Source: Candidatus Altimarinota bacterium
GTDB taxonomy: Bacteria > Patescibacteriota > Gracilibacteria > BD1-5 > UBA6164
DNA length: 64,000 nt
Direction: 5' to 3'
Assembly: GCA_027066455.1 (NCBI GenBank)
Contig: JAMONT010000083.1
Coordinates: forward strand, 4,052-68,051
Shown here piece by piece: positions 5,374 through 63,620 of the stretch (position 1 is its first letter; each line of letters opens with the position of its first letter). Below the pieces are notes generated by a model, which searched no databases, had not been told where the DNA came from, and saw only the letters and a list, made by a program, of their open reading frames with translations. A program made the position numbers and the translations under genes.

Positions 5374-7287
5374 ATGGCTGAATTAGTAGACACATATATA
5401 GAAGAAGAATTACAAAAAATAGTTTCAAAAGTTCTAGAAATTCATGGAGAGGATTTTAATTTTTATGAAATAGAAGAAATTTGTCTGGATTTTTTAAATG
5501 AAATTCCAGCTAAAATAAAAGATGTTACTAAAATTAAAAGACTTATAAAATATGTAAATAAAGAGTTTGAATTAGAAAATAAAGTAGGGAATGAAAATTT
5601 TCATTCTTTACAAAATAATTCACAATACAGTTTAGGAAAAATTCCAAAATATTTATTTGAATGAAAAACAAGAATTCAATCATGATTAATTAATATTATA
5701 GATTTAAAAGCAAATATTTGATTAACTGAACTTTTTGACTGACTTAATTTAAAAGTAAATAAAACTGATAAAATAGCTCTAATTTGAAAAAATGGTTGTT
5801 GAAAAACAACTTTATTAAAAATGATTATTTGAAAAAAAATTGATTTAATAGAAAGTGAATGAGAAATAAAACTTGCTCAATGATTAAATATTTGATACTT
5901 ATCACAAGATTTATTTTGGGAATCAGAAAACAATACTTTAGAAGAAGAAATGTTTAAAATTTTTCCAGAAATAACACAAAAAGTTGAAGAATTAGAAAAA
6001 ATCTCCCTTTTACAAAGGGAGTACCCGGAGGGGGAGGGATTTGAATGTGAGTACACAAAAATCCAAGAATTAACAGAATATTTACTAGAAAATGATTGAT
6101 TTAAAAAATATGAATTGCAAAAAAATATTTTGAAATATTTTGGTTTTTCAGATGAAAGAATGAAACAAAATGTTTTAAGTTTATCTGGTTGAGAACAAAC
6201 AAAAGTTCAAATTGCAAAATTTTTAATACAGCAAGTAGATTTATTAATTCTTGATGAACCAACAAATCATTTGGATATTGAATGAATTATTTTTCTTGAA
6301 AAGTTTTGTCAAAATTGGAAAAAAGCAATAATATCAATTTCTCATGATAAAAAATTTATTGATAATTCTAGTGAAAAAATAGTTGAAATTTATAGACATA
6401 AGGCTTTTAATTATGTTTGAAAATACTGTGATTATGAAAAACAAAAACAAGAAAGGTATGATAAAGAACTAAAAGATTTTAAAGACCAGAAAAAAATAAT
6501 TGATGAAGAAGAAGTATATATAAATAGATTTAGAGCAAATTCAGCAAAAGCATCAGCTATTCAATCTAGAATAAAAGCACTTGATAAAGTAGTAAGATTA
6601 AAAGAACCTGAACATGATCAAAAAGCAAGATTTATTTCTATTTCAACAACTAGAAGATTACCAGAAATAATTATAAAATTAAGAAATATTGAAGTTTGAT
6701 ATGATGAAATTTTAATAGAATTGCCAGAAGAAATTAATGTTTTGAAAACAGATAAAATATGAATAATTTGAGCAAATTGAACAGGTAAAACTACACTTTT
6801 AAAAACAATTTTATGAGATTTGAAAGCTTTAAATTGAACAAGTGAAATTAATGAAACTTTAAAAATTGGTTCATTTGCACAAATTCTTGATGAATTAAAT
6901 TTAGAAAATTCAATAATTAATGAATTATCTGAAAGTTTAAATGAGCAACAAGAAGTAAGAAAAATTTTGTGATGACTTTTAATAAAATGAGAAAAAGTTA
7001 ATCAAAAAATAAACTCTCTCTCATGATGAGAAAGAGCAAAAGTATGACTTACAAAAATGCTTTTACAAAAACCAGATATAATAATAATGGATGAACCTAC
7101 AAACCATCTAGATTTGCATTCAAAAGAAATTATCAAAACAATGTTAAAATGATTTGACTGAATGACTCTTATTGTTTCACATGACAGAGATTTACTTGAA
7201 AATGTATCTAATAAAATTTGGTTAATTAGAGATAAAAAAATGGAAATTTTTGATGAAGTTGAAAAATGAATTAGAGAGGTTTATTAA
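5374..7287 (+). CDS. ABC-F family ATPase (tandem ABC domains, EttA/Uup-like) with an N-terminal extension of about 100 aa
   Basis: Two Walker A motifs (GKNGCGKTTLLK, GANGTGKTTLLK), two signatures (LSGGEQTKV, LSGGERAKV) and two Walker B motifs (LLILDEPTNHLD, IIIMDEPTNHLD). 638 codons with TGA=Gly. Confidence 0.85.
6002..6051 (+). repeat. GC-rich palindromic element, variant copy, in-frame inside the ABC-F gene
   Basis: tctcccttttacaaagggag-tacccggagggggaggg-atttgaatgtgag. Translated as SLLQREYPEGEGFECE in the linker of ABC domain 1. Confidence 0.6.
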
Positions 7288-10765: not shown

Positions 10766-10825
10766 AATTTTTATTTTTTTTAAGAAAATATTAAGGAAAT
10801 TTTATAAAATAAAAAACCTCATAAT

Positions 10826-10872
10826 GAAGCCTCTTTCCTTTTGACCAAAAGGAGAGAATTCAAGAGAGGAAT
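10826..10872 (+). repeat. GC-rich palindromic element, intergenic copy
   Basis: gaagcctctttccttttgaccaaaaggagagaattcaagagaggaa. Ends about 7 nt from the stop codon (10879-10881) of the minus-strand gene. Confidence 0.75.
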
Positions 10873-10878
10873 ATTATT

Positions 10879-11280: not shown

Positions 11281-11363
11281 AATTTTACTTGATTAAAAAA
11301 TATTTTATACCTTTTTATAATATGAAAAAAAGCTAAATAGTCAAAAAAATTTTAAAAAAAAAA

Positions 11364-11410
11364 TTCCCCACTTGAATTCTCCCCTTTTGTAAAAAAAGGG
11401 AAGAGGCACA
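11364..11410 (-). repeat. GC-rich palindromic element, intergenic copy in reverse orientation
   Basis: The reverse complement reads tgtgcctcttccctttttttacaaaaggggagaattcaagtggggaa. Confidence 0.7.
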
Positions 11411-11427
11411 TAATTAATTACAATAAT

Positions 11428-11475
11428 TTGTAGCCCCCTTCCTTTTGACCAAAAGGAAGGGATTCAGGGAAGGAA
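11428..11475 (+). repeat. GC-rich palindromic element, intergenic copy
   Basis: tttgtagcccccttccttttgaccaaaaggaagggattcagggaaggaa. Ends 4 nt from the stop codon 11480-11482 of the beta-propeller gene. Confidence 0.8.
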
Positions 11476-11479
11476 TTTT

Positions 11480-17662: not shown

Positions 17663-17695
17663 AAAAATTTAAAATTAAAAAAATAAATTATTCTC

Positions 17696-17765
17696 ATAAT
17701 AAGAATATCTTTTTTTTAAGCAAATTTTTAATGTGAAGAAATGTATGGGGTTTGTGGAAATTTTT
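17696..17765 (-). promoter_or_regulatory. Conserved promoter cassette, copy 3 (distal box diverged)
   Basis: TTCCACAaaccccatacatttcTTCACAttaaaaaTTTGCTT, 16 nt spacer, TATTAT (17696-17701). About 34 nt upstream of ATG 17662. Confidence 0.5.
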
Positions 17766-17770
17766 AAAAA

Positions 17771-19273: not shown

Positions 19274-19309
19274 AAAGATTTTAGGGTTAATGTAAAATAA
19301 GTTAACTAA

Positions 19310-19372
19310 AATATAGTCAACTTATTTTTTAAAGCAAATTTTTAATGTGAAGATTTTGTGAAGAATTTTTTT
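19310..19372 (-). promoter_or_regulatory. Conserved promoter cassette, copy 4
   Basis: TTCACAaaatcTTCACAttaaaaaTTTGCTT, 16 nt spacer, TATATT (19310-19315). About 37 nt upstream of ATG 19273. Confidence 0.6.
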
Positions 19373-19375
19373 AGA

Positions 19376-19568
19376 AAATTTATTTCTACATTCATATAAG
19401 TATAAGTAAAAAAATAACTTCAATTCCATTTTCTTTTTTCTTTTTACAATCTACAGAATTATATTTGTTTTCATTTGTAGAACATTTTCATTCACCAATT
19501 TTCACACACATTTTATCTCATTTTCAATCAGAAAGTGACATTAAAGAATAAGCACATTCTCTTTTTAG
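19376..19568 (-). pseudogene. Deleted remnant copy of the 3' end of the 14981-17662 gene
   Basis: Near-identical to about 14981-15012, 15203-15245 and 15621-15735 joined head to tail. Junctions lie at the short repeats acttc and caatctacagaat. No start codon or signal peptide found. Confidence 0.5.
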
Positions 19569-19656
19569 AGAAATTCACAACTCTTTTAAAAGTCTTTTGA
19601 AATTGTTTTTTATAAATATTTTACTACCATTTTTTATATACTTCCAAATATTTTTT

Positions 19657-20337
19657 TTAAATTTCTTTTATTTCTAAAACATAAAGTTTTTTATAAACTT
19701 CTTTTAAAATAAATTCTGATAATTTTTCAGATTTTTTTGCTGTAATAGTTATATTGATTTCTTGAAAGAAAAATGAAAAAATTTTGCTAGTTAAACTAAG
19801 TAAAAATTTATCTTTTCAATACATTTTTATCAATCTTTCAGTTAAAAGTGAAGAATATTCTATACTCAAAACATCAATAATATCTTCAACCCAAAGATTT
19901 ATTCTATTTTGAATTTCTGTATCAATAGTCAAATCATTAAATTCTTTTAATTCTTCTGAAATATAACTAAAATCTATTAATTCTTTTCATGATTTTATTC
20001 TGATTTTATCACTTATTGGTAAATAAATTAGAGATAAAAGTCAGATTAAAAAGTTGGAAGGATAACTTTCATCTAAACATGCAAAAAGGTCAGTTAATAA
20101 AAAATCATATTTTTTATTTTTTATTATTTTTATCAAAAAACTAGATAATAATAAATCACATTTTTTAGCTTTTGATTCATCTTTAATTGTTCTTTTTATT
20201 CAAGCTGCATCTTTTTTTGCTTTTTCAGAAGCCTTTTCAGATGCTTTTTCAGAAGCAGCATTTATTCAAGAATTAACTTGTCAATCTAGATTATTATCTG
20301 TACTTTCAAAGTTTGATTCTATATCTTCTAATCACAT
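19657..20337 (-). CDS. Hypothetical protein
   Basis: 227 codons, ATG 20337 to TAA 19657-19659 with TGA=Gly. N-terminal SEKASEKASEKAKK repeat. Confidence 0.5.
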
Positions 20338-20404
20338 ATTTTTTAAATTTAATTTATAAAATATTTTTTTTATTATATTTAAATAAATGTTTTTTACAAA
20401 AGTT

Positions 20405-23400
20405 TTAATCTTTTTTTTCAAATTTTATAGTTCAACCTTTTTTTACAAAATTTTCTAAAATACTTATATATTCATTATATTTTTCTTTATCTAAATCAGA
20501 ATGATAATTATTTTTAATATTTTCATAAACTGATTTTAATTCATCTGCTTCAAAATTATCTTTTTTTACTTGAGACAAAATAAGTTTTATAATTTGCATC
20601 AATTTTTTTGATCTCATTCTAGTTTTTACTCCAGTATTATCTTTGAAAACTACCCATTTATAAATACTAACATCAATATTTTTAATTTTTTTATTAACTG
20701 TTTTTTCTTTATCTTTCAAATTATCAAAACTAAATTCTGAAAGTAAATTATCTCAATATTTTTTTGTATATAAAGTAGAAATAATTATTAAAACAACTCA
20801 TAAAATTCAAAAAATAATATATCTTGAAGTTATATCTCAAACTTCCCAAACATCAAATAAAAATATTTTAGAGATAGTTAAAACTAAAAAATATAATCAA
20901 ATAGTTCTAAATTTTTGTAAATCTTTTTGAATTCAATAAATAAGTAAAACTGAAGCAATTAATCACCAATACAAAGTTAAAGAAAAATGTTCTAAATTAT
21001 TTTTAAAAATATCTAATACATAAATATTACTAACTAAAAATGCATAAATTCACAAAATAATTTTTAAAGTTAAATTAATTTTTTTATTTCAAATATTTTC
21101 TTCCTTTTCCAAAGGAAGTCCCGAAGGGGATGGATTATTGCTTTTTTTCCAAATAAAAATATTAAAAACTAAAATTCAAGTTACTAAATATTGCAATATT
21201 TTCAAATATTCTAAATTTCTAACTTCTAATGTAGAAAAAATATTATTTATATCTCAAATATGAAAAATAGAAAATCATAAAATAATTACTACAAAAACAT
21301 ATTTTAAAAAATTTGTATTCAATTTTGAATAAAAAAATCACAAAATTGTTATAAAAATAATTATCCCAAATTTACTCCATCAATTTCCATTACTAGGAAT
21401 TATTTCATATAATAAAATTCACATAATAATCATTCAAATTATATGTAAAATATAATGAATATTTTTTAAAACTATATTTTTTTCTTTTATACTCCTTCCC
21501 TTAGGCTTAAGGGAAGGTTGGGAAGGGTTAATTTCTTTTTCCTCTATAAAAAATAAATTTAAAATAAATGAAGCTAAAATTACTGAAAAACTAACTAAAA
21601 ATAAATAATTTTCTGATTTTACTTCATCAATTAAAATTCAAAATTGTGTTAATCAAATGAAAAATAAAATAGTTGCAGCAATAAATATTTTTTTAGAATT
21701 ATTTCTAGAGAAAATATAATACAAAATAGTTGCTTCAAAAAGCCAAACAGTTGTAATAATTTCTGGATATTTTGAAAATACAAAAACCATAGAAACAGAA
21801 AAAATTGAAATACTAATTCAAGCAAAAGTATAAAAAATATTTTTCAAACTTTCATCTTTTTTTACATTTTCTATTCAAATTTTTTGTATAAAAAAGTAAG
21901 CTTGTAAAAAATAAACAATTGCTAAAGCTAAAAAAGCAAATCATTCTATAACTCAAGGAAAATAAATTTCTCAATAATTATAAATTTGAAAAGAAATAAA
22001 TAATGCCGAAGCTACTACTCAAATAATTAAATTATAAAGATTTTGTTTTTCAAATAATCTTTTGTTTATAAAAGGTAAAACAAAATTAGAAATTGCAAAA
22101 ATAATTATTGCTATAATTGAAACTAAAAATAAAATTGAATTATTATTAGAAATTACTAAATATGGTGCAAAAGTTATTATTGTTCAAATTGTTCAAATAG
22201 GGAAGAGTGTAGATAAATCTTTTTTTGTTGAATAATAATAAGAAAAAAATAAAAATATAAAACTAGAAAATAAAATAGTAAAAAATTCTAAATTATTAAC
22301 ATTATTTAAATTTCAGATAATATTTAATTCTAAATTAAATAAAAATATAAAAAATCATAAAAATATAAAAAGAAAATATTTATAATAATTAGAAATATTT
22401 TTTTCTATAACTGAAAATCAAAGTAAAAATAATATTAAAAAAAGTGTTAAAGTGAAAGAAGAAAAAATTAAATCTCAAGAAAATAAAATTAAAATAATTA
22501 TTACAAAAGGAATAATAAATATAGAAAAAATTCCAGATTCCTTATCTTTTACAAAATTTTTCAAAAAATAAATACTAAAAGCAAATAATCATATCAAAGC
22601 AATATTATAAGCTAAAAAACTAAAAGTTTCAGATAAAAATCAAGAAGAATTAAATAAATTTAAAATTATAAAAAAATAAGTTCATAAAAAAATATATAAA
22701 ATATTTCAGCTAATATTATCTTTAGAAAAATTGTATGCTATTTTTATTGAAATAATACTTAAAATAATAGTAAAAATAATTTTTACACTCCAGCCAATTG
22801 AATCAGAAAAAGGTGCTGCAAAAAATAATAAATTTCAAAAAATAAAACTAATAATTAAAAGAGTTAAATTATTTTGTTTGTTAGCTAAGAATAAAGCTCA
22901 CAAACTTACAATAAAACTATATCAAACCAGAGTATAAGGTTCAGTTCCAGAAGTTCAAATTATAAAAGGATTTATGTATGCAAAAATAAATGAAAAAATT
23001 AAAAGAGTTTTTGATTTATAAATTAAAGAAGTTAAAATTCAAAGAATTGTATTTAAAATCAAAAATAAAAATGTTGTAGTTTCAGCAAAAAATATTTTAT
23101 TTCATCATATTAATAATTCATTTCATCATACTAAATGTCTTCAAGCTAAGATAACAGCATAATTTATCAAAATCCCTGTTCACATCAAAATAAGTCATTC
23201 TTGTTTATATTTTTTATGTAATTTTATTCAAGAAAAATAAATAATAAAACCAATAATTATTCAAATAACAACTCTTCAAATAGGTCAAATAATTTCCCAA
23301 ACATTTATTGCAAGTCATTTTAAAAAATATACAACCATTAAAAAAAGTAAAATTCATCATATTTTAGCTAAAATATTTGTAGAAAAAAAATTTTTTATAT

Positions 23401-23974
23401 ATGTTCAAAGTTTTTCAAAAAATATTTCAGTAGGACTTGATTCATAAAGTATTTTTTCTTTTGAAATTATTGTAGCCCCTTTCTCCCTATAAGGGAGAGA
23501 GGATTCAGGAGAGAGGGGATTTTCTTTTTTTATAGTTTCAAATCATTCATCTGGTAAATCATTAATTCCAATTTTTTCTTCTTCCAAAGATTTTGTTCAA
23601 AAACCAATTTTATCTAATTTAGTTTCAATATTTTCTTTTAATTCCAAAGATTTATATTTTATATCTTCATTTTTTAATTCATCTACTTTACTTTTTATTT
23701 TATCAATTTCTATATTTTCTTTTTTTTCATTTTTTACAAAACTATCATTATTTTTAGTTTTTTTATTTTCAATTGCATTTGCAAAAAATTCTAATCTTTC
23801 TTTTATAAAAGTACTAGAAAATAAACTTTTTTTTATAATTAAAATAAGAAAAATAGTAGTTATGAAAAAAATAAATTCTCATAAAAAATAAAAAAATCAT
23901 GAAAAAAATCCAATAATAACTATTCAAAGTATTATTGATATAACCCAAGCAAATCTATTTAGTAATTTAAACAT
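20405..23974 (-). CDS. DUF2339-like polytopic membrane protein (about 1190 codons)
   Basis: N-terminal TM helix plus coiled coil, then several dozen hydrophobic helices. The C-terminal soluble domain equals track ORF 20432-20719 plus GTIKFEKKD. Length is divisible by 3 and no TAA/TAG was met in manual translation. Confidence 0.65.
21100..21136 (+). repeat. GC-rich palindromic element, variant copy, in-frame in the DUF2339-like gene
   Basis: cttccttttccaaaggaag-tcccgaagggga-tggatt. Read on the minus strand as NNPSPSGLPLEKEE. Confidence 0.6.
21492..21529 (+). repeat. GC-rich palindromic element, diverged copy, in-frame in the DUF2339-like gene
   Basis: ctccttcccttaggcttaagggaaggttgggaagggtt. 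Read on the minus strand as NPSQPSLKPKGRS. Confidence 0.6.
23470..23519 (+). repeat. GC-rich palindromic element, consensus-like copy, in-frame in the DUF2339-like gene
   Basis: ttgtagcccctttctccctataagggagagaggattcaggagagagggga. Read on the minus strand as ENPLSPESSLPYREKGATII. Confidence 0.85.
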
Positions 23975-24019
23975 ATTTTTTTTATTAAGAATTATTTTAT
24001 AATTAAACTTTCCCTTTTT

Positions 24020-24067
24020 TGTAGCCTCTTTCTCCCCACAAGGGAGAGAGAATTCAAGAGAGAGGGA
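24020..24067 (+). repeat. GC-rich palindromic element, intergenic copy
   Basis: tgtagcctctttctccccacaagggagagagaattcaagagagaggga. Abuts the stop codon 24070-24072 of the TSP3-repeat gene. Confidence 0.8.
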
Positions 24068-24069
24068 AA

Positions 24070-25731
24070 TTATTTCAATTTTACAGCCATTTTGAATATT
24101 GCAATTCAGAAAAACACTATAACTAAAGACAAAAGTATCATAAAAATATTTTTATTTGATTCAAAAAATCTATCATCTTTTTTATCACAAACATCTCAAA
24201 TTCAATCCAAATCAATATCACTTTGAAGAGGATTATAATCATAAGGACAATTATCATTTTTTGCTAAAATTTTATCTAAATCAGAATCTTCACAAGCATC
24301 TCAAATCCCATTATTATCCGAATCTTTTTGAAGAGGATTATAAATATTTATACAATTATCTTTTATTCAACTTATTCAATCAGAGTCAGAATCTTCACAA
24401 ATATCTCAAACTCAATTTTTATTTTCATCAAGTTGATCAGAATTTTGAATATTTTTACAATTATCACAAACATCTCAAATTCCATCTTTATCAAAATCCT
24501 CTTGCTTAGGATTAGCCATTTCTTCACAATTATCTTGAGAATTAATTATTTTATCTCAATCTTTGTCATTTTCTTTTAAAAATTTTTCTTTTTCCTCAGT
24601 AACATCTCCAATTCAATTATTATTTTTATCTAATTGTCTTGGATTATAATAAATTGAATTATCACATTTATTTCAAATATTATCCAAATCATCATCTTTT
24701 TGAAGAGGGTTAGCAATATTTATACAATTGTCTAATTGATCAAAAATTCAATCAGAATCCTTATCAAATTCACATTTATCTCATACTCAATTTCTGTTTA
24801 TATCTTCTTGCTTAGGATTATAAACATTTATACAATTATCTTTTTTTCAAATTATAGAGTCTCAATCATCATCACTACACAAATCTCCAATTCAATCAGC
24901 ATTTTTATCAAATTGTTTTGGGTTAGCTATTTTTGGACAATTATCTTCTGAATCAGGAATTTTATCTAGGTCAAAATCTTCTACTTTATTTGGATTAAAA
25001 TTTGGATTTTCTTTTAATTCTAAAAAAATAGTTTTTGTATTTTTATTTAAATTATATTCTCAATAATTATTTTTTAAATTTATATAATTATTTTTACAAA
25101 TATTTTTAGCATAAGCTTTTATTTCTCAAATAGTTTTTACTAAATAAATATAATTTTTTGAAATAAATTTTAGTTCAAAAATTTTAATTTTTTCAGGAGG
25201 AGTAATATGTTTTACTGTTGTATTAAAAGAAATTTTTAAAAATTTGAAATCATAAGTGTTTAATTTTTTTTCTGGAACAAAAAAATATTTTTCTCAATCT
25301 TTAGAAATTTCAATATGAGCATTTCTATAATTTGCTTTATATTCAAAATTAAAATCAAAACTTCAAGCTTTTAATATTTTATCAAATTCTAAAAATATAG
25401 AATTTTTATTTTTTTCCTCATCATAAATTAAAAAAGTTTTATAATTTTCATCACTCAAATATTCTAAATTTCAAAATAAATTTTTTATTTTAAAATCCAA
25501 AATTCATCAATAATTTTTATATAATTTATGAGGAATAATTTTATTATCAGAAATAAAAGTATCTATTTTTTTTGTAGAATTTATTTTTAAAGTTCATTTT
25601 TCTTGTTTTAGAATTCAAAAAAATTCATAACAATTTTCTTTAAAATTTTCAGGAATTTTTTTGAATTCTTGTGCAAAACTAGAATTTATAAATAAAAAAA
25701 ATATTGAAATTAGAACTATTAATTTTTTCAT
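24070..25731 (-). CDS. Secreted thrombospondin type-3 (calcium-binding) repeat protein with C-terminal TM anchor
   Basis: 554 codons. Signal peptide MKKLIVLISIFFLFINSSFA. About eight DNCxxxxNPxQxDxDxDGIGDxCD repeats. C-terminal IFMILLSLVIVFFGIAIF helix. Confidence 0.8.
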
Positions 25732-25816
25732 AAAAAATATCTTTAAAAAATAATTATTTTAAGTATAATAGAAAATGTATTAAAATGCAAATTTTAAAAA
25801 AATATTAATAAAAAAA

Positions 25817-26470
25817 ATGAAAACACATATAATAACTATTTTTCCAGAAAGTTTTGAATCTTATTTTGGAACTTCAATTATAAAAAATTCTATAAATAAA
25901 AAATTATTTTTCCCAGTTTTTTATAAATTAAATGATTTTTCTACAAAAAATACTAGAAGGGTTGATTCAAAAGCTTATGGAATGCACGGACAAGTTATAG
26001 AAGCTGAACCTTTGAGTAAAGCTATAGAATTTATTTTTAAAAAAGTTTGAAAAAAAATTCCTGTTATTTATTTTTCTCCAGATTGAAATTTGTTAAAACA
26101 AAAAAAAGTAGAAAAATTTAGTGAAGAATTAAAAGAATTTATTATAATTTGTGGACATTATGAAGGAATTGATCAAAGAATTAGGGATTTGTATGTAACT
26201 CAAGAAATTAGTATTTGAGAATATATTATTTCTAGTTGAGAATTAGCAGCAATGGTTTTTTTAGATTCTTTAGTTAGAAATATTCCCTTAGTTTTAGGAA
26301 ATAAAAAAAGTTTAGAGGAAGATAGTTTTTCTGAAATTTTTGAATGAAAAAAGGAATATCCAATTTATACTAAGCCAAAAATTTTTAAAAATTTGCAAGT
26401 TCCAGAAGTTTTATTTTCTTGAAATCATAAACAAATAGAAATTTGGAAGAAAAAAAACTTGAAAAATTAA
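25817..26470 (+). CDS. trmD: tRNA (guanine37-N1)-methyltransferase
   Basis: Track ORF 25817-26050 continued through TGA codons. ...[14 protein letters not shown]...[24 protein letters not shown]...[11 protein letters not shown]. Confidence 0.9.
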
Positions 26471-26529
26471 CTATTTCTGTTATATATAATAACAAGAAAA
26501 TTTTTATAAAATTATTTAGCTAAAAAATT

Positions 26530-27357
26530 ATGAAAGAAACTTTTTTTGAATATCTTGATATTATTCAAGTATTTTTTCAAAATATTATTAACAATATTTT
26601 GAATTTTGATTATGTTACATTTTTTATTGATTATTTTGAAAATTTTTGAATGGAAGATTTTTTCAAAATAATAGTAGTTTACTGATTTTTATTATGGGTA
26701 GCAATAATAATTTGGGTTACTAGAGATATTTTAGCAAGAAGTAATAGTATTTTATTACAACTTTTTTCTATCTTATTAGTAGTTTTTTTAACTCCTATTT
26801 TTGGTTTAATAATTTATTTTATAATAAGACCAGCTCATAAAAAATACGATGAGTATGATGATGAATATGAAGAAGTTTATGAGGAAGTTTCAGAAGAAAA
26901 TCCTGAAAATTTAGAAAATTTTGAAAAAAATATTAATCAAAAAATAAAACAAGAAAAAGAAATTGTAAAAACAGATATTTTTTTAGAAAAAGTAACTTGT
27001 TATAATTGTCATTATCACATAGAAGAGGATTTCAAGTTTTGTCCAAATTGTGAAAGTCAATTACTTGATAATTGTAAACAATGTTCTAAACAAATAAAAT
27101 CTAACTGGAAAATTTGTCCTTATTGTGCTTTAAAAATCACAAAAGAAGAAAAAAATATTGAAGAAGAAGAAAAAGAAGAGGAGTTAGAAGAAGAAAAAAA
27201 GGAAGAAAAACCATGATTTTTTTCTAATTTATTTTCTTGAAAAGAAGAGCAAATAAAAAAAGTAGAAGAAAAACCTATAAAAATAAAAGTTGAAAAAGAG
27301 GCTCCAGTGATTTCTGAAAAAGGGAAAAATTATAAAAAAAATGTAGCTAAGAAATAA
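26530..27357 (+). CDS. Membrane protein with PLD-nuclease-N-like TM domain and a double zinc ribbon
   Basis: WVAIIIWVTRDIL...LTPIFGLIIYFIIRP, then CYNCHYHIEEDFKFCPNCESQLLDNCKQCSKQIKSNWKICPYCA. 276 codons. Confidence 0.6.
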
Positions 27358-27399
27358 TTTTTCAAAAAATTTTTATACAGAAATTTAAACAACAAAAAA

Positions 27400-27436
27400 A
27401 AATTTAACTAAAATTAATTTTAGTTAAATTTTTTTG
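27400..27436. terminator. Bidirectional terminator-like perfect palindrome
   Basis: aaatttaactaaaatt/aattttagttaaattt flanked by A and T runs, between convergent genes. Confidence 0.6.
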
Positions 27437-27483
27437 TAAAGGAGTAATTAGTTAGTATTTTATTCTCTACTTTGTGAACTATT

Positions 27484-30276
27484 TTAAGTAGTACTATCAG
27501 TGCTAGCTCAAGAATTTTCAGTTTCATTTACAGGAGTAGTAGTATTATTTCAAGCTTCAGTTTTTAAAAAATCTGTTCAAGTTCAATCTACTGCCTTTAT
27601 ATTTCAATTGTTATTTTTATTTATAATAGGTTTTCAACTATCATCTTTTTTTACATATTTCTTCATTCTTTTTATTATTTCTTGTTGTTCTGTAGTTTGT
27701 TTTATTTCAAAATCATTGTCTAATATTTTTTTAAATTTACTTTCTTCCATTTCTCATAATAATCATTGTTTTTCCATATATTGAACCATTTGTTTTATAT
27801 CACTTTCTTTTTCTATTTTATTGTCTTTTACAACAATATTATATGCTCAAATTCTAACATTAAATTTACCATCTTCAGCTTCTAATGGTACAGCATTAAA
27901 CCCTCAACCACCACTTCAAGGATTAGAAGAAGAAGTTTTTTCTACCCAATTAGTATTTCAAGTTCAAGTTGCAGTTTCATTATATACTAATTTTCATTTT
28001 TCATCTGTTTTAAGATGTTTTCATAATGCTTTCATTTCTTTACCTATTTCTTTTTCATCTATTTTTAAAGAAAGTAATACATCTTTAATTTCTCATTCTT
28101 TTGTAATTCATTCTTGTTCTAAGTATTTTGCTATAAGTGGTATATCATTATTTTGAAGATTATTATCATTGTTTTCATATCTATTATTAAGCTTAATATC
28201 ATTTCATTTATTACCTCTCAAAGAAGTTGGTCATTTTTCAGTGTTTTTAATATATTTAGAAGTTGAAATAGAGTCAGAATCAGAATTATCAATTGTAGAT
28301 TTTATTAATTCAGACATTGATGAATTTTCTCATTCTCCTCCATCAGCATTAAACATAGCTATTTTAACTTTAGCATTAGTAGTAGGTGCAGTTGCAACAT
28401 CTCTCCAAGTAGTATCAAGTTGACTTTCAGTTGTAACATTTTGTAATTTTTTAATTTGTTCTTCTGAAAATCACATTTTATTTCATAACATTTCCATAGT
28501 TTTATCAAAAGCATTTGACTTTATAAATTCATTAGCATTCTTGAATTTTCATCATCTTACAACCTCTTTTATTAATAAATTAATTTGATTTGATATTACT
28601 TTGTTATCACCACCTTTAACAGCACTTTCTATAGCTTTTAATCTTTCATCTGTTTTACCACTTAATAAAACTCTCATTGCTCAATCACTTTGTATTCACA
28701 TAGCTTTAGAAGCATAATCTCAAATAGCTTGTCAAAGAGCAGCTCATTTATATGCTGCATTTCATTCTATTGTTGCTTTTGTTTTTTCAGCAGCATTTTG
28801 TAGTGAAGTTAATGTGTGTCATTTTGTAAAAGGTAAAGGTATATATTTCGGTGCATTCATCATCAGACTTCAGGCAGATTTTCAGAGTTCACTTATTGGA
28901 GCAATAATACTTCCTGTAATTTTGGAAGCTGATAGCGCGGTTATAACTCAAAGCCATAAAATTATTAATCAAAATAAATCTAAAATTATTATTCATACAG
29001 CTCAAAGTCATGTTGAAAATAACTGATTTACAGAATCAGCTGCTTGTATATTTGCACTATTAGAAAAAGCTAAATCAAAAGTATGTTCATATGTACCTAA
29101 AATTTCAAGAGTAGAAGTCTTATCTGTATTTTTCTTTATATTTATAATATTTGTAGTTGGAGATGTTGCTAATCAGTTTCATACTATACTTAAAAAAAGT
29201 AATCAAAATGCTAAAGCTCAGGAAACATATACAGGAACCATTGCTAAAGCTACTAATTCTTTTATAGAAAATTTTTCATTAAAACCACTCCAACCTTTTC
29301 AGAAAAATATAAATATTCAAAAAACAGGAGAAAAAATCATATATATCCATAAAGCAACTCACCTTACAAATAAAGCAAATCAGAGAGCTATTACAAGTAT
29401 AAAATATATTATTATAAATACAATATCAAAACCAATTTTTATTATTAAGTCAAAAAGAGTACTTACTTTATCACTTATTGATTCTGAATATAATACCATT
29501 GTTTCATCTAAAGCAAAAACTCAATAAGTATAAATATTTAATATTCAATATGCTGAACGAGGTCAGTATAATAAAGTACTTATAAGCACTTTATCTTCTT
29601 CACTTCTACATTTTGTAGTACTAACTTGGTCACCAACTACAGAAATTGTAGTACCATCAGCTTCAACAGAGCTTTCTATTTCGTCTCATTTTTTCTTTTC
29701 ACTTGTTGTTGTCACAGGATGTGTACAGATTTTTTTTGCTAAAAATTCTTTTACGGCTGGTTGATTTTGAAAGGTATCAAAAGGGAGAGTTAAAATAGAA
29801 GCTGCAAGCATAGAAGAAATACTTATTAATCATGCTATTAAAACCCAAGATAAGGGAACCATTAATACTCAAAGTAAAAGTTTTGGAAGTGCTTGTTTTA
29901 GTTCAAAGGTTCAGTCTCATTTTCAAATAATATTCATAAATGCTATTGCTATAAGCAAAAATATAAATATAAGATATACTACATTTGAAACCAAAATCCA
30001 TAATTCATGAATATAATTAGTCATTCAAAAAACTTCTCAACTAGTCCAAGCAGGATGTAAGAATAATCACACAAATTGTGTTACAATTCAAATTAATGTT
30101 GATAATAAAATAAAAATACCATTTATTTTTTCTATTAAATCAGCTTTTTCATCTGTTGCATTTTTAACATTATTAGCAAAACTTAAGTCTGAAAAATAGA
30201 AAATTATAAAAATTCCTAAAAATATTAGGATTGTTTTTCTATTATTTGTAATATAGTTTAATATTTTTTTAAACAT
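27484..30276 (-). CDS. Large polytopic membrane protein with long hydrophilic C-terminal half (possibly TrbL/VirB6-like)
   Basis: 931 codons, in frame with track ORF 30088-30276. About 8 hydrophobic helices in the first 470 aa. The family assignment is tentative and based on architecture only. Confidence 0.55.
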
Positions 30277-30572
30277 TTTTTTGTTATAATTATTATATAT
30301 TTTCTCTAGATACTTTTATATTTATCTTATCTTAACATTATTTTTAAAGTTTGACAATTTTTTTTACTTGCTTTTTCTATAAATTAGTATTTTAATAACT
30401 TTTTTTAAAAAGCAAGAGATTTTTTATTTTATTTTTTATTTCATTTTTTTCTTACAATTTGGTCTTTTTTTAATATTTACTAATTTTAAAATTGATTTTT
30501 TATAATTATCTATACAATAATAAAAAAATATTTTATCTTAATTATTAAATTTTGAATTTACAATTTTTTTAT

Positions 30573-30619
30573 TGTAGCCCCTTTCCCTTTGGCTAAAGGG
30601 AAAGGATTCAGGATAGGGA
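30573..30619 (+). repeat. GC-rich palindromic element, intergenic copy
   Basis: tgtagcccctttccctttggctaaagggaaaggattcaggataggga, in the divergent intergenic region 24 nt upstream of ATG 30644. Confidence 0.8.
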
Positions 30620-30643
30620 TAATATTAAATTAAAAAACTACTT

Positions 30644-44134: not shown

Positions 44135-44842
44135 TTAAATTTTATCAAAACAAATTATATATTCTTCAAATGAAGAATCTCTACAAGCCAAAGGTTTATA
44201 AGTTTTATAGCTTTTAAATCTTTTTTTTATTTCTTTTTGTAAATCTCTAAAATCTTCTCAAACAAAAACTTTTAAAAGCATATTTCATCATTTTTTCAAA
44301 AAATTATCAGAAAATTTACAAATTTCTATATTTAATTCAACAGAAGCATATTGGTCAACATCTTTTCTCCCAGTTGTATTTGGAGCAATATCACTAGTTA
44401 TTAAATCAAATTGTTTTAATTCATATTTTTTTGTAGCCCCTTTCTCCCCAATAGGGAGAGAGGATTCAGGAGAGAGGGCTTTTATTTTTTCTCTTAATTT
44501 TTCAAAATCAAAAATATCACAAACAATAGTTTTTATATTTTTATTTCAAAAACTTTTTATTTCCTTTAAATCAACTCAAATAATAATTTTATTTTTTACA
44601 ATTTGACTAATTAATTGCAAAAAACTACCAGGAGCTGCTCATATATCTATTATATTCATTTCTGGTTTTATAAGTTCAAATCTTTTTTGAATTTCTTCTA
44701 ATTTATAAATACTTCTTGCTCTAAAACCAGCTTTTTGAGCTGCAATTGCATAAGCATCTTTTACAACAAATTGTCACTTTTTTGTATTTCTTTTTCTATG
44801 AAAACCAGTTTTTCCTTTTCCATTTTTTATATTTTTTTTCAT
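44135..44842 (-). CDS. rlmE: 23S rRNA 2'-O-ribose methyltransferase RlmE/FtsJ
   Basis: ...RARSIYKLEEIQKRFELIKPEMNIIDIGAAPGSFLQ...DLITSDIAPNTTGRKDVDQ...NMLLKVFVGEDF... 236 codons including a 17-aa insert encoded by a repeat element. Confidence 0.85.
44432..44478 (+). repeat. GC-rich palindromic element, consensus-like copy, in-frame inside rlmE
   Basis: tgtagcccctttctccccaatagggagagaggattcaggagagaggg. Read on the minus strand as ALSPESSLPIGEKGAT. Confidence 0.85.
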
Positions 44843-44852
44843 TTTTTTACAA

Positions 44853-45569
44853 CTAATAAATAAAAATAGCTCCATCATCATCAGCTAAAAAAATTTTTCA
44901 TTTTTCATCAAAAACTATTCATTCCCAAGAAGCTCAAGATAATTTTTTTGTTTCTATAATTTTTTCATTTTCTAAATCATACTTAAATATACTATCATTT
45001 TTATCTGATAAAATATATAAATTATTTTCATAAAAAGTCATTCAACTCAAATCTTCATAATCCAAATCAAAAACTTTTTCTAATTTTAGATTTTTATTAT
45101 CTTTTTTTATTTTAAATTTTAATAAATTATTTTTTTTATTTTGAGTAGATATATAAAAATATTCTCCTGTGTAAGCTAATCATTCAGCACCAGATTTTTT
45201 ATTAAAATATTTCTTTCTATCTTTTTTATCTAAATCTAAAAGAAAATCTCATACAATTTCCAGATTAGAAGAATTTATTTTTATCAAATTTCAAGAATCT
45301 TCTAAAAGTAAATAAATTTTATTATTTTTTTCATCACAAACAATTCCTTCAAAATCATAATTTCAAATATTTTTTTCTTGTAATTTTTTTCACAACTTAT
45401 CTATTTCATAAACTTTTCATTCATCATTTGCAACAAAAAAACTATTAGTATTTTGCATATAACAAATTCAAGAAGCTTCAGAAATTTTTGCAATTTTTTT
45501 ATATTTATTTGTAACATTATTACAAGAATATAAAAAAAGTACAAATATTAAAAATATTATTTTTTTCAT
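44853..45569 (-). CDS. Lipoprotein, possibly a YjiK/SdiA-regulated-type beta-propeller
   Basis: Lipobox LFLYSC. Recurring ...EASGI..., ...FEGIV..., ...AEGLA..., ...WEGIVF... blade-like segments. 239 codons. Confidence 0.45.
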
Positions 45570-50624: not shown

Positions 50625-52508
50625 TTATTTTGTAAGTAAATTATAATATCACATAAATTTATAACCAACTTTTTCCATTTCTATTCAAACAACTTGAGCA
50701 TAAAAACAAGTTAAATTATTATCACAAATAGTCACAATTTCTACATCTTTTGGAATTTGTTTAATAGATTCTGCCCATTTATTTTTTGACAAATAAACCA
50801 AAGGAATATTAAAACTTCATTTTAAATGAGAATTATCAAAAACTTCTTTTTTTCTAACATCAATTAAATAAATTCAATTTTTGTATTTTTTTTCTAAAAT
50901 ATTTTTTGAAAATTTGTATTTATATCTAGGTTTTTTATAAACTTTAAAAACATCTTTTTCTCACTTATAGTTTCATTTTTCTTTTATCCATCAACTTACT
51001 CAATTTTCTAAAAATCTCACATCAAATCATTTTGTTTTCAAAAATTCAGCAACTTCTATTGATTTTGTTTTTTCCCAAGTATAAACAACTATAATTTTCT
51101 TTTTATCCAATTTATCATATCCACCATTTATTAAATCAGCAAATCTGATAAACACACTTCCATCAATATAACCAGCCTTTCTTTCTATATTTTCTCTTGC
51201 ATCTAAAAGTAAATATTTTTTATTTTTTGTTTTTAAAATATTTTTTAATTCTATATTTTTAATTGATTTTATATTTATTTTTTTATTTATTTTTTTATTT
51301 TCTTCTTTTTTTTCTAAAGGAGTAATTTTTATAGTTTTACTTGTTTTTATCTTAAATTTTCAATTTTTTAATTTAATTAATTCTTTCAAAACTAAATAAT
51401 TTTTTAGTCAATTTTTATCATAAATTTCTAAATCAATAAAATAATTATTTTTAGTATTTTTCTTTAAGTAAACTTTATTTACAACTATTTTTTTTACATC
51501 TTTATACCAATTTTTATACTTTTCAAAACTAGTTTTTTTAGCTGAATTTTCATAAGCTTTTTTTAATTCTTTTTTTACTATACTATTATAATGATTTCTA
51601 AAAAATTTTTCCTCACTACTTTGCTTTACAGCCCCTTTTTCCACACCCAGGAGAGAGGATTCAGGAGAGAGGGTTTTTTTGGTTTCTGCTTTTTTTCACT
51701 TCACCAAAATTATTTTTCTTTTACTTTTTGCAAGCTCTTTTTTATAATTTTCTAGTTCTTTTTTATAATCTTGTTTTTCTTTTTTAGATAATGATTTTTC
51801 ATTTTCTATTCAAAAAAAATCATCTTCTTCATCTTCAATATTAATAGAAAAAATATCTGTTTTAGTATTTGTTTTAGCTTTTTCTAATTCTAATTCTCTT
51901 AATCTTTTTCTATTTTTTAATTTTTGAGAAATACTATATTCTTCAACTAAATTTTCAGAAAAATCTCAAGAATTTACTTTATTAATGCTTTTATCAATAT
52001 TAATTAAATCTTGTTGTAATCTTTTTATATTTGTTTGAATTTCATTACTTTTCAAAATATTTTCATTTGTACTAAAAGTGTCTTTTTCTATTTTTTTAGA
52101 ATTTTCTATTTTTTCTTCAAGTAATTTAAATTTAGAAGTTTGTTTTTCTAATTCTATTTGTAAAAGTTTTCTTCTAGCTTTTTCACTATTAAACTTTATT
52201 TTTATTGAAGTTGTTCACTTTTTTTCTTCATTTTTCAAATTTAATATTTGATTTTTTTGAAAATTTAAATCAAGTAAAAATGAAAATCATAATGAAATCA
52301 AAATAATAACAGAAAAGAAAAAGTTTTTTTTATTTCTTTCTATATATTTTGTTTTTGTATAAAAGTGAAAAGTAATTCATATAAAAAAAGTCAAAGCAAT
52401 AAAATATAACCAAAAATTTGATTTTGGTTCAAAATTATTTATATTTTCTGCATTAGAAAAGGAAATAAATAAAAAGAATATTAAAAATATTTTTATTAAT
52501 TTAATCAT
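50625..52508 (-). CDS. Membrane-anchored coiled-coil protein with two C-terminal rhodanese-like domains
   Basis: 628 codons. Start, stop and track ORF 51408-51644 share one frame. ...LLLDARENIERKAGYIDGSVFI... and ...YLIDVRKKEVFDNSHLKGSFNIP...ICDNNLTCFYA... are rhodanese signatures. Confidence 0.6.
51629..51674 (+). repeat. GC-rich palindromic element, consensus-like copy inside the rhodanese-protein gene
   Basis: acagcccctttttccacacccaggagagaggattcaggagagaggg. The track ORF start (MEKGAV...) lies inside it. Confidence 0.8.
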
Positions 52509-63527: not shown

Positions 63528-63571
63528 TTTTTATAATGTTAATTTTATTTTTTTCAAAATTTCAATATTTT

Positions 63572-63620
63572 TGTAGCCCCTTTCTCCCTATCAGGGAGAG
63601 AGGATTCAGGTGAGAGGGAG
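63572..63620 (+). repeat. GC-rich palindromic element, consensus-like intergenic copy
   Basis: tgtagcccctttctccctatcagggagagaggattcaggtgagagggag. Ends 1 nt from the stop codon 63622-63624 of the tex fragment. Confidence 0.85.

What the first reader, a model, noticed from the sequence alone, without database searches (positions are those of the whole stretch)
23470..23519. Each element encodes two mutually exclusive hairpins, and all three arms covary between copies
In the 23470 copy, the pyrimidine arm CCTTTCTCCCT (23478-23488) pairs with AGGGAGAGAGG (23492-23502). Alternatively, CCCCTTTCTCC (23476-23486) pairs with GGAGAGAGGGG (23508-23518) beyond the ATTCA spacer. Diverged copies change all three segments together:

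- 11428 copy: CCCTTCCTTTTG / CAAAAGGAAGGG / GGGAAGGAA.
- 30573 copy: CCTTTCCCTTT / AAAGGGAAAGG / GGATAGGGA.
- 10826 copy: CTCTTTCCTTTTG / CAAAAGGAGAG / AGAGAGGAA.

Loops differ freely (TATA, CACA, AATA, GACC, GGCT). Three-way covariation suggests selection on structure (a two-state RNA or DNA switch) or a copy mechanism that regenerates the arms. It is not explained by sequence drift alone. On the + strand the long alternative hairpin is followed by a T-rich run, which makes it terminator-like.
Basis: seen in the sequence. Interest (0 to 1): 0.8.

Follow-up and report, generated by a model that had tools for sequence, protein, structure and literature searches.

The report
Triple-helix-forming dispersed DNA repeat
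The three covarying arms are real, but the third arm is a mirror image of the second, so this 48-base repeat looks built to fold one DNA strand into a triple helix (as E. coli BoxC does) rather than to switch between two hairpins; it is scattered through TGA-recoded Gracilibacteria genomes and even sits in frame inside genes.

Summary
The sequence at 23470-23519 is as described, and three arms do covary. The geometry was misread. The element is 5'-TTGTAGCC, pyrimidine arm Y, variable loop, purine arm R, ATTCA, third arm H.

- **Mirror code.** H is the mirror image of R, not a direct repeat. In 180 unique copies, H follows the purine-motif triplex code (G opposite G, A or T opposite A) at 96.4% of positions. 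Permuted arms give 69.6±1.1%.
- **Alternative hairpin.** Y:H pairing is no better than permuted (68.1% vs 67.4%). It is strong only where the arm is (GA)n, as at 23470.
- **T content.** H carries 250 T of 1480 bases, always opposite A. R carries 2.
- **Closest known.** This is the class II intrastrand DNA triplex architecture of E. coli BoxC/PIT/TM_ECO, in a different sequence family.
- **Abundance.** The window has 10 perfect motifs, about 0.05 expected.
- **Host range.** True copies were recognised only in Gracilibacteria-type DNA (TGA=Gly).
- **In genes.** About a quarter of copies lie in frame inside genes. Inserts in RlmE and DUF2339 are absent from orthologues.

It is not a terminator or an RNA switch. 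Function and means of spread are unknown. I infer a structure-dependent, single-strand-DNA-based selfish repeat.

The parts
23470..23477 (+). Conserved single-stranded 5' anchor TTGTAGCC of the copy in the finding
   Evidence: TGTAGCC is exact in 167 of 204 parsed copies. Per-column conservation is 89-100%.
23478..23488 (+). Pyrimidine arm Y (CCTTTCTCCCT), Watson-Crick partner of R
   Evidence: Y:R cells are TA 841, CG 810, TG 111 and CA 15.
23489..23491 (+). Hairpin loop (ATA), free in sequence and length across copies
23492..23502 (+). Purine arm R (AGGGAGAGAGG), central strand of the predicted triplex
   Evidence: R arms hold 2 T in 1480 bases.
23503..23507 (+). Invariant spacer ATTCA, the turn between R and H
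   Evidence: ATTCA is exact in 195 of 204 copies.
23508..23518 (+). Third arm H (GGAGAGAGGGG), mirror image of R and predicted reverse-Hoogsteen strand
   Evidence: Per-position R/H tables; mirror statistics.
10824..10873 (+). Copy (anchor ATGAAGCC): TCTTTCCTTTT-GACC-AAAAGGAGAGA-ATTCA-AGAGAGGAATA. Intergenic, between two minus-strand genes.
11428..11477 (+). Copy: CCCTTCCTTTT-GACC-AAAAGGAAGGG-ATTCA-GGGAAGGAATT. Lies just past the stop of minus-strand ORF 11480-13909.
11362..11412 (-). The only minus-strand copy (anchor TATGTGCC): TCTTCCCTTTT-TTTAC-AAAAGGGGAGA-ATTCA-AGTGGGGAATT
24019..24066 (+). Copy of the T/A variant (GCCTC...GAATTCAAG), just upstream of the DUF2339 start codon
30572..30621 (+). 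Copy: CCTTTCCCTTT-GGCT-AAAGGGAAAGG-ATTCA-GGATAGGGATA. Has T-for-A in H. Lies in a divergent intergenic region.
44431..44478 (+). Copy inserted in frame (antisense) in the RlmE/FtsJ gene. Translated as ALSPESSLPIGEKGAT.
51626..51672 (+). Slightly decayed copy (anchor TTACAGCC), in frame (antisense) in a rhodanese-domain protein ORF 50625-52511
63571..63619 (+). Copy with H = GGTGAGAGGGA (T-for-A). Intergenic.
21494..21529 (+). Member of a second triplex-repeat family (no GTAGCC anchor, 3-nt spacer TTG): CCTTCCCTT-AGGCTT-AAGGGAAGG-TTG-GGAAGGGTT. In frame in the DUF2339 gene.
21100..21142 (+). Degenerate hairpin-plus-purine-arm element, in frame in the DUF2339 gene
6005..6050 (+). Degenerate variant (CTCCCTTT-TAC-AAAGGGAG ... 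GAGGGATT) in frame (sense) inside the first ABC domain of an ABC-F ATPase ORF 5374-7287
20405..23971 (-). Host gene: DUF2339 membrane protein carrying three in-frame elements (21100, 21494, 23470)
   Evidence: All three inserts are absent from the L197 orthologue.
44135..44884 (-). Host gene: RlmE/FtsJ 23S rRNA methyltransferase. The open frame is given; the start codon is uncertain.
   Evidence: Pfam FtsJ 6.6e-47 in one stretch across the insert. The insert is absent in 15 homologues.

Best explanation
The element is a dispersed DNA repeat of about 48 nt. Its GTAGCC-bearing strand is built as a class II (purine-motif) intrastrand triple helix.

**Predicted fold.** The pyrimidine arm Y and purine arm R form a hairpin of 10-11 bp. 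After the invariant ATTCA turn, the third arm H folds back antiparallel to R. It reads R through the reverse-Hoogsteen code G.G-C, A.A-T and T.A-T. The unpaired parts that are conserved in sequence (TTGTAGCC and ATTCA) are presumably protein contacts or turn determinants. The arms only have to fit one another.

**Shown.**
- The sequence obeys this code across dozens of arm variants.
- The fold is favoured on the GTAGCC strand.
- The family is abundant and was recognised only in TGA=Gly Gracilibacteria-type DNA.
- Copies are gained or lost at orthologous sites.
- About a quarter of copies are carried in frame inside genes.

**Inferred.**
- The fold forms when that strand is transiently single-stranded DNA, during replication, repair or an excised intermediate. 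RNA is unlikely, because purine-motif triplexes are reported not to form in RNA (PMC4666352).
- Selection for the fold acts at the step that propagates the element. That would make it a selfish, structure-recognised, REP/MITE-like repeat. A single-strand-specific enzyme may mobilise it, and the 5' GTAG-plus-hairpin recalls REP/RAYT.
- Whether it has any host function is unknown.
For: - **Per-position triplets (160 copies).** Position 1: AA 94, GG 63, GA/AG 3. Position 9: GG 79, AT 49, AA 29, none discordant. Position 10: AT 96, GG 46.
- **Mirror code.** 96.4% against 69.6±1.1% permuted, and at most 58% when the register is slid by ±1-3. At type level it is 96.8% against 65.4±2.2%. Of 59 single-step arm changes, 51 are tracked by H.
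- **T content.** H has 250 T and R has 2, per 1480 bases.
- **Compensatory Y:R changes.** Both-sided changes are abundant (for example position 9: CG 79, TA 78). T.G outnumbers C.A 111 to 15, so the GTAGCC strand is the folding strand.
- **Abundance.** 10 perfect motifs in the window against about 0.05 simulated. There are 192 in 817 kb of Gracilibacteria-type DNA against 1 in 813 kb of other phyla. These include further families with other spacers that obey the same code.
- **Precedent.** TM_ECO/BoxC (Y9-N3-6-R9-N3-H9, also with T-for-A in H) folds into a stable triplex in vitro, shown by CD and NMR with Tm 70-82 C (PMC4666352).
- **Gain and loss.** The RlmE insert is absent in 15 homologues, including ones 76-80% identical, and there is an empty site in DNA. 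Three DUF2339 inserts are absent in L197.
- **Other features of dispersal.** Near-identical copies occur within the window. There are head-to-head pairs and tandem arrays. Copies are co-oriented within contigs 64:23, and 9 of 10 in the window are on one strand.
- **Structure in ORFs.** In-ORF copies keep the code as well as intergenic ones, 96.9% against 96.7%.
Against: - No physical evidence of folding exists for this sequence. ViennaRNA cannot score triplexes.
- For the E. coli analogue, in vivo DMS footprinting did not detect a stable triplex, and no function was found (PMC4666352).
- These arms are richer in A.A-T and T.A-T than TM_ECO, so they are probably less stable.
- No transposase is linked to the element. 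The one Y1/RAYT-like gene found (L207) is flanked by a different GTAG-hairpin repeat.
- No target-site duplication or exact boundaries were defined.
- Copies are related by descent, so cell counts overstate independent events. This is only partly cured by the type-level test.
- The collection pattern pre-selected Y-rich and R-rich arms. It did not constrain H beyond its first two bases.
Confidence: 0.7

Rival explanations
1. One reading: a two-state switch between hairpin Y:R and hairpin Y:H. It would act in RNA or DNA, for example as an attenuator or terminator.
For: In (GA)n-armed copies the two folds are nearly isoenergetic: 23470 at -19.1 against -18.5, 44429 at -16.5 against -17.6, 51619 at -13.4 against -11.9. 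The DNA-parameter MFE of 23470 mixes both. The 3' flank is T-rich.
Against: Y:H pairing in that register is 68.1% against 67.4% permuted. The longest alternative helix averages 5.3 bp in the 94 copies without GAGAGAG. T in H (17%) cannot pair with a pyrimidine arm. The mirror register beats the best direct register, 96% to 81%. There is no terminator call and no Rfam hit. Copies sit inside ORFs in both orientations.
Confidence: 0.04
2. RNA-level function of the complementary strand. In mRNAs that carry the element antisense (the commoner orientation), the transcript reads H'-UGAAU-Y'-loop-R'. It could form a pyrimidine-motif (U.A-U / C+.G-C) RNA triple helix that affects stability or translation.
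For: Mirror symmetry automatically gives the complementary strand a class III/IV motif (PMC4666352). Pyrimidine-motif triplexes do form in RNA. Elements are antisense to transcription 70:34.
Against: Each T in H becomes an A in the Hoogsteen strand, which is not an allowed triplet; this affects 17% of positions. The 111 T.G wobbles become C.A mismatches on that strand. C+ needs acidic pH. One third of copies are in the other orientation or in divergent intergenic DNA. The orientation bias has a simpler cause: the sense strand would place a UAG and two Shine-Dalgarno-like GGAGG runs in the mRNA (inference).
Confidence: 0.08
3. A host-selected element of double-stranded DNA. The R-ATTCA-H mirror repeat would form H-DNA (with Y:R forming a cruciform) under supercoiling. 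It would serve as a replication or transcription pause, a recombination hotspot or a nucleoid-protein site.
For: A homopurine mirror repeat of about 25 bp is the classical H-DNA requirement. TM_ECO loci show raised genomic variability. Copies are strongly co-oriented within contigs.
Against: H-DNA does not need a Y arm in cis, yet Y covaries perfectly. Placement inside unrelated ORFs, in 5 of 6 frames, with presence/absence between orthologues, looks like parasitism rather than function. No positional rule relative to genes was found.
Confidence: 0.13
4. An ordinary REP-like hairpin repeat whose downstream purine tract is low-complexity by-product. There would be no three-strand structure.
For: It has a 5' GTAG followed by an imperfect palindrome, as in REPs. 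Head-to-head pairs occur as in REPINs/BIMEs. A RAYT-like gene exists in one related contig.
Against: H tracks R position by position across 40 arm types (z about 14). Slid registers fail. Independent families with other spacers (TTG, TTA, CTG) obey the same code (L238).
Confidence: 0.03

Closest known systems
E. coli BoxC = PIT element = TM_ECO, a class II intrastrand purine-motif triplex repeat (Hoyne/Maher 2000 as cited in, and Holder et al. 2015 NAR, PMC4666352)
   Same: Same strand order: pyrimidine arm, loop of 3-6 nt, purine arm, short second loop, reverse-Hoogsteen arm. Same triplet code, including T-for-A in the third arm (GGGAGAGGG / GGGTGAGGG). Loops are less conserved than stems. 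Both are dispersed in tens of copies, with some head-to-head inverted pairs. Neither has promoter, terminator or RNA-family features.
   Different: Different sequence family. This one has arms of 10-11 nt (not 9) with about 50% A/T, a 5-nt invariant ATTCA second loop (not TTA/CCG), and a conserved 5' TTGTAGCC. Its hosts are about 20% GC, TGA=Gly Gracilibacteria rather than Proteobacteria. TM_ECO is always intergenic with no strand bias, whereas about 25% of these copies are in frame in ORFs and they are co-oriented. TM_ECO arms are nearly invariant and mirror-symmetric. Here about 40-49 arm variants, many asymmetric, give a natural covariation test.
Rickettsia palindromic elements (RPE), selfish repeats inserted in frame in protein genes (from my own knowledge: Ogata et al. 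2000)
   Same: Short structured repeats are tolerated as in-frame insertions in conserved proteins of a small-genome bacterium. They are absent from orthologues, and other copies are intergenic.
   Different: RPEs are 100-150 bp simple palindromes with no third arm. There is no sequence similarity. The hosts are a different phylum.
REP/REPIN elements mobilised by RAYT (Y1 HUH) transposases (from my own knowledge: Nunvar 2010, Ton-Hoang 2012, Bertels & Rainey 2011)
   Same: A 5' GTAG immediately followed by an imperfect palindrome. High copy number. Inverted doublets. Single-strand hairpin recognition is a plausible mode of action.
   Different: REPs are extragenic and have no mirror-repeat third arm. 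No RAYT was found in the window. The single RAYT-like gene in related contigs is flanked by a different GTAG-hairpin.
H-DNA-forming homopurine mirror repeats
   Same: R-ATTCA-H is a purine mirror repeat of about 25 nt.
   Different: The cis pyrimidine arm makes the triplex self-contained on one strand. T interruptions in one half are frequent.

Membership tests
Class II intrastrand purine-motif triplex motif (ITxF definition, PMC4666352) | [quoted passage not shown] | tested here: met
   All 10 window copies and 192 copies in related DNA have this order.
Class II intrastrand purine-motif triplex motif (ITxF definition, PMC4666352) | Triplets are G.G-C, A.A-T or T.A-T, with the third strand antiparallel to the purine strand. 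Stems are 6-15 nt with at most 1 mismatch. | tested here: met
   Stems of 9-11 perfect triplets in the window. 96.4% of cells obey the code family-wide.
Class II intrastrand purine-motif triplex motif (ITxF definition, PMC4666352) | Loops are 1-6 nt | tested here: met
   The second loop is always 5 nt (ATTCA). The first loop is 3-5 nt in 9 of 10 window copies and 7 nt in the decayed 51626 copy.
Class II intrastrand purine-motif triplex motif (ITxF definition, PMC4666352) | The isolated strand actually folds into a triplex (CD, NMR, DMS protection) | not testable with these tools
   Only Watson-Crick folding could be computed.
TM_ECO / BoxC sequence family | Consensus CCCTCNCCC-N3-6-GGGNGAGGG-N3-GGGNGAGGG | tested here: not met
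   The ATTCA family has different arms, a 5-nt second loop and a GTAGCC anchor. Separate elements in related contigs do match it exactly: L187 1785-1817, L200 1206-1240, L201 1470-1502.
REP / RAYT system | GTAG tetranucleotide 5' of an imperfect palindrome | tested here: met
   TGTAGCC plus a Y:R hairpin of 10-11 bp. G-T/C-A-G is conserved at 89-100%.
REP / RAYT system | A cognate RAYT (Y1_Tnp) gene flanked by the same repeats | tested here: inconclusive
   No hit in the 64-kb window. One Y1_Tnp ORF was found in about 0.8 Mb of related DNA (L207 6526-7014, Pfam 2.9e-08). Its flank carries GTAGGGAACGAA-TATT-TTCGTTCC, not this element. Whole genomes were not available.
REP / RAYT system | Extragenic location | tested here: not met
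   39-46 of about 178 copies lie inside long ORFs.
Intrinsic (rho-independent) terminator | GC-rich stem with a 3-8 nt loop, immediately followed by a U/T run | tested here: not met
   No terminator-like site was called at any of the five copies in 10750-30700. The hairpin is followed by ATTCA plus purines.
Two-state RNA switch / attenuator | Both alternative helices supported by covariation | tested here: not met
   Y:R is supported. Y:H is 68.1% against 67.4% permuted. There is no Rfam match at E<=1.
In-frame selfish repeats (RPE-like behaviour) | Insert lies inside a conserved ORF, keeps the reading frame, and is absent from orthologues | tested here: met
   RlmE. DUF2339 at three sites. 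A variant lies inside an ABC-F ABC domain.

The most novel reading that the evidence does not exclude
This family may give the first natural covariation evidence that an intramolecular DNA triple helix is itself under selection in living cells. Three arms coevolve under the G.G-C / A|T.A-T code across dozens of variants and several unrelated families. The triplex would be the recognition structure of a new kind of single-strand-DNA mobile repeat that colonises coding sequence in recoded CPR bacteria.
Probability: 0.35. Interest if true: 0.8.

Novelty: new variant of a known kind. Interest (0 to 1): 0.62.

Why it matters
Intrastrand DNA triplex repeats (BoxC/PIT/TM_ECO) have been known since 2000. 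Their in vivo relevance is unresolved. The E. coli motif is almost invariant and mirror-symmetric, so its sequence cannot show whether the third arm is selected. In vivo footprinting there was negative (PMC4666352).

The Gracilibacteria family supplies what was missing. It has many asymmetric arm variants in which the third arm tracks the second in mirror register, with the T-for-A freedom specific to reverse-Hoogsteen pairing. That is hard to explain without a three-stranded fold being seen by selection. It gives a defined set of oligonucleotides and compensatory mutants to test.

It also adds a second example of structured repeats carried in frame inside essential genes, after Rickettsia RPEs. 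For annotators of code-25 genomes it flags a recurrent 14-16-residue insert of the type 'LSPESSLPxxEKGAT'.

Tried and rejected
- **First genome contigs pattern was too loose.** TGTAGCC-N18-34-RGRATTCARG gave 119 loci, of which only 8 (all Gracilibacteria MAGs or an 'uncultured bacterium' MAG) held true elements.
- **No close relatives.** Nothing among the fetched loci is at least 85% identical to the window. Exact insertion boundaries and target-site duplications therefore could not be defined.
- **Alternative-hairpin model rejected.** It was tested by register scans, permutation, duplex energies and constrained folds. Duplex energies alone discriminate poorly: Y:H is -10.3 and Y:reversed-H is -10.9, against -7.1 shuffled. 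Any purine arm pairs loosely with a pyrimidine arm.
- **Terminator idea rejected**.
- **Known RNA family: none**.
- **Phage carriage: none in IMG/VR**.
- **Protein-motif explanation rejected.** Copies are intergenic, in both orientations and in several frames.
- **RAYT/IS200 search.** I used query sequences recalled from memory. It gave one Y1_Tnp gene, not linked to the element.
- **G-quadruplex, attC, CRISPR and tRNA-like readings.** I considered these from the sequence and dropped them, because their defining features are lacking.
Full report
**Host and context**

- The window is about 20% G+C.
- With the standard bacterial code it has only 12 ORFs of at least 100 aa. With TGA read as sense, long ORFs cover it.
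- All four TGA codons in the EF-Tu gene (32689-33987) align with glycine in E. coli EF-Tu. The genome therefore uses code 25, which points to Gracilibacteria or Absconditabacteria.
- RlmE homologues are named Candidatus Gracilibacteria by their sources.
- The tRNA genes at 32158-36518 encode CCA.

**The observation**

- A profile built from eight copies finds eight plus-strand copies and one minus-strand copy in the window.
- The anchor-plus-spacer pattern occurs 6 times against 0.00 expected.
- The architecture is T(T)GTAGCC, pyrimidine arm Y (10-11 nt), variable loop, purine arm R, invariant ATTCA, then a third purine-rich arm H.

**More copies**

- A first genome-collection scan was too loose. 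It still showed true elements only in Gracilibacteria MAGs: L002/L052, L010/L059, L044, L091, L095 and L106.
- Profile search over everything gave 224 hits, of which 204 were parsed and 180-187 were unique.
- In 55 of the 56 element-bearing metagenome loci of at least 4 kb, ORF coverage at least doubles when TGA is read as sense. The mean rises from 0.31 to 1.36.
- There is no match in IMG/VR viral contigs.

**The key result: H is a mirror image of R**

Indexing triplets outward from the base of the stem and from the ATTCA spacer, R[-i] and H[+i] are almost always G/G, A/A or A/T.

| Position | Counts |
|---|---|
| 1 | AA 94, GG 63, discordant 3 |
| 4 | GG 86, AT 56, AA 16, AG 2 |
| 9 | GG 79, AT 49, AA 29, discordant 0 |
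| 10 | AT 96, GG 46 |

- Over 180 unique copies the code (G to G, A to A or T) holds at 96.4% of cells. With H arms permuted among copies it holds at 69.6±1.1% (maximum 73.2%). With the register slid by 1-3 it holds at no more than 58%.
- Collapsing to 40 distinct R-arm types gives 96.8% against 65.4±2.2%. Of 59 pairs of types that differ at one R position, 51 show H following at the mirrored position.
- Asymmetric arms make the point directly:
  - AAAGGAAGGG / GGGAAGGAAT
  - AAGGGAAGGA / AGGATGGGTT
  - AAGAGGAAGG / GGATGGAGTT
  - AGGAGAGGGA / AGGGTGAGGG
- R contains 2 T in 1480 bases, because it must pair with Y. H contains 250 T, all opposite A.
- Y:R shows abundant two-sided compensation. 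T.G outnumbers C.A 111 to 15, so the GTAGCC strand is the one whose fold is preserved.

**What this geometry means**

- A hairpin Y:R plus a third purine/T strand running antiparallel to R, with G.G-C, A.A-T and T.A-T, is the definition of a class II intrastrand purine-motif triplex (PMC4666352).
- A mirror repeat cannot be produced by templated copying. The covariation therefore has to come from selection on a fold in which H reads R.
- Purine-motif triplexes are reported not to form in RNA. The T substitutions and T.G wobbles are also unfavourable on the complementary strand. The most likely folded species is therefore the GTAGCC DNA strand when it is single-stranded. This step is an inference.

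**The alternative hairpin**

| Copy | Alternative Y:H fold (kcal/mol) | Main Y:R fold (kcal/mol) |
|---|---|---|
| 23470 | -19.1 | -18.5 |
| 11428 | -9.6 | -16.3 |
| 30573 | -8.0 | -16.3 |
| 10826 | -6.2 | -13.6 |

- These values use RNA parameters. The alternative fold at 23470 is real because GGAGAGAGG is its own mirror image.
- The longest alternative helix averages 8.8 bp in (GA)n copies and 5.3 bp in the other 94.
- The terminator scan calls nothing at the elements. Rfam has no match.

**Abundance and other families**

- A generic perfect-triplet finder gives 10 motifs in the window (9 on the plus strand, 1 on the minus strand) against about 0.05 in Markov simulations.
- It gives 192 motifs in 817 kb of Gracilibacteria-type DNA against 1 in 813 kb of loci from other phyla.
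- Fifty of these lack ATTCA. About 30 form a second family with a TTA or TTG spacer and a 5' (T)AGCTnnT flank.
  - This family includes window 21494-21529.
  - It also includes copies that match the published E. coli TM_ECO consensus exactly.
- L238 carries further variants with other spacers. Several unrelated sequence families thus obey one structural code.

**Genomic behaviour**

About a quarter of copies lie inside long ORFs.

- The RlmE/FtsJ gene (44135-44884, minus strand) has one uninterrupted Pfam match across the insert.
  - Its 14-16-residue insert ALSPESSLPIGEKGAT is absent from 15 homologues, including ones 76-80% identical.
  - A relative's DNA shows conserved flanks with a 42-nt gap.
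- The DUF2339 gene (20405-23971, minus strand) carries three elements in frame. All three are absent from the L197 orthologue, whose flanks are conserved.
- A degenerate variant lies inside an ABC domain of an ABC-F protein.
- Five of the six frames through the element are open, because TGA is sense.
- In-ORF copies keep the triplet code as well as the others, 96.9% against 96.7%.

Orientation is biased but not fixed.

- The GTAGCC strand is antisense to transcription 70:34. The counts are 31:15 inside ORFs and 39:19 between tandem genes.
- Copies on one contig are co-oriented 64:23.
- A simple cause for the antisense excess is that the sense strand would put a UAG and two Shine-Dalgarno-like GGAGG runs into mRNAs. 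This is an inference.
- Head-to-head pairs (7) and tandem arrays (L168: 67 nt x 5.6 and 79 nt x 4) occur.

**Mechanism of spread**

- The mechanism of spread is not established.
- The 5' GTAG plus hairpin recalls REP/RAYT.
- I searched with IS200 TnpA and E. coli YafM sequences recalled from memory. This found one Y1_Tnp ORF (L207 6526-7014; Pfam PF01797, 2.9e-08).
- That ORF's flank carries a different GTAG-hairpin. Nothing was found in the window.

**Comparison with what is known**

- The closest known system is E. coli BoxC/PIT/TM_ECO: CCCTCNCCC-N3-6-GGGNGAGGG-N3-GGGNGAGGG.
  - It is class II and forms a stable triplex in vitro.
  - It also shows T-for-A in the third arm and occasional inverted pairs.
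  - Its function is unknown, it is always intergenic, and no in vivo footprint was detected.
- The present family has the same design but is not a member of that sequence family.
- It adds three things: asymmetric covarying arms, conserved single-stranded GTAGCC and ATTCA motifs, and in-frame residence in genes (an RPE-like behaviour).
- I found no paper describing it in Gracilibacteria.

**Verdict**

- Best explanation: a triplex-folding, probably selfish, dispersed DNA repeat.
- It is a new variant of a known kind.
- Caveats:
  - No physical folding data exist for this sequence.
  - Copies are not phylogenetically independent.
  - The collection pattern pre-selected pyrimidine and purine arms, though it did not constrain H beyond two bases.
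  - The element boundaries and the mobilising activity are unknown.

Noticed in passing
window 32689-33987 (EF-Tu) and whole window: The genome uses genetic code 25 (TGA = Gly). All four in-frame TGA codons of EF-Tu align to E. coli glycines. The standard code gives only 12 ORFs of at least 100 aa in 64 kb. Tools that translate with table 11 fragment every gene here.
   Followed up: yes
window 21494-21529; L128 8157-8195; L180 4374-4412; L187 1785-1817; L200 1206-1240; L201 1470-1502: A second intrastrand-triplex repeat family with a 3-nt spacer (TTA/TTG) and a 5' (T)AGCTnnT flank. Several copies are exact matches to the published E. coli TM_ECO/BoxC consensus (CCCTCTCCC-N3-5-GGGAGAGGG-TTA-GGGTGAGGG), in TGA-recoded low-GC contigs.
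   Followed up: partly
L238 9039-9085 and 10717-10755: A relative that lacks the RlmE insert carries other hairpin-plus-mirror-arm elements. One is CCCCTTCCTTTA-GAC-TTAAGGGAAGGGG-CTG-GGGGATGGGATAG. The other is CCCCTCCTT-ACT-AAGGAGGGG-AGTAA-GGGGTGGTAA, just after the RlmE stop codon.
   Followed up: partly
L168 1511-1882 and 1-314: The element occurs as tandem arrays with a constant spacer: 67-nt period x 5.6 copies, and 79-nt period x 4 copies at 99% identity.
   Followed up: partly
e.g. L195 1048/1057, L159 3037/3043, L173 413/422, L002 2996/3003, L225 10893/10903: Head-to-head inverted pairs of elements whose 5' GTAG ends abut or overlap. They resemble REPIN/BIME doublets and the inverted TM_ECO pairs of E. 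coli.
   Followed up: partly
L207 6526-7014 (-) and 7040-7070: A RAYT-like Y1 transposase ORF (PF01797, 2.9e-08; HUH motif HIHGI; WQKSFYDVIIR). Next to it is a classical REP-like GTAGGGAACGAA-TATT-TTCGTTCC hairpin. The same contig holds one triplex element 2.5 kb away.
   Followed up: partly
window, all copies; loci generally: 9 of 10 window copies are on the plus strand. Across loci, copies are co-oriented 64:23, and the GTAGCC strand is antisense to transcription 70:34. The relation to replication direction could not be determined.
   Followed up: partly
window 24049-24058, 10855-10864 and many loci: Position 1 of the stem switches as a unit between two states. GCC-C...G-ATTCA-G switches to GCC-T...A-ATTCA-A. 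This is a three-way change, and the T/A state creates an EcoRI-type GAATTC site across the spacer.
   Followed up: no
window 32158-32403, 34708-34792 and 36056-36518: Seven tRNA genes (Asp, Ala, Leu, Asn, Ser, Ser, Met), all on the plus strand and all with encoded CCA. They flank the EF-Tu gene (32689-33987).
   Followed up: no
in-ORF copies, e.g. window 23470, 44431, 51626; L233 5339; L163 13026; L143 3067: Antisense in-frame copies add a recurrent peptide of the type (K/N)xLSPESSLPxxEKGAT(K) to unrelated proteins. This could be mistaken for a protein motif in code-25 proteomes.
   Followed up: partly
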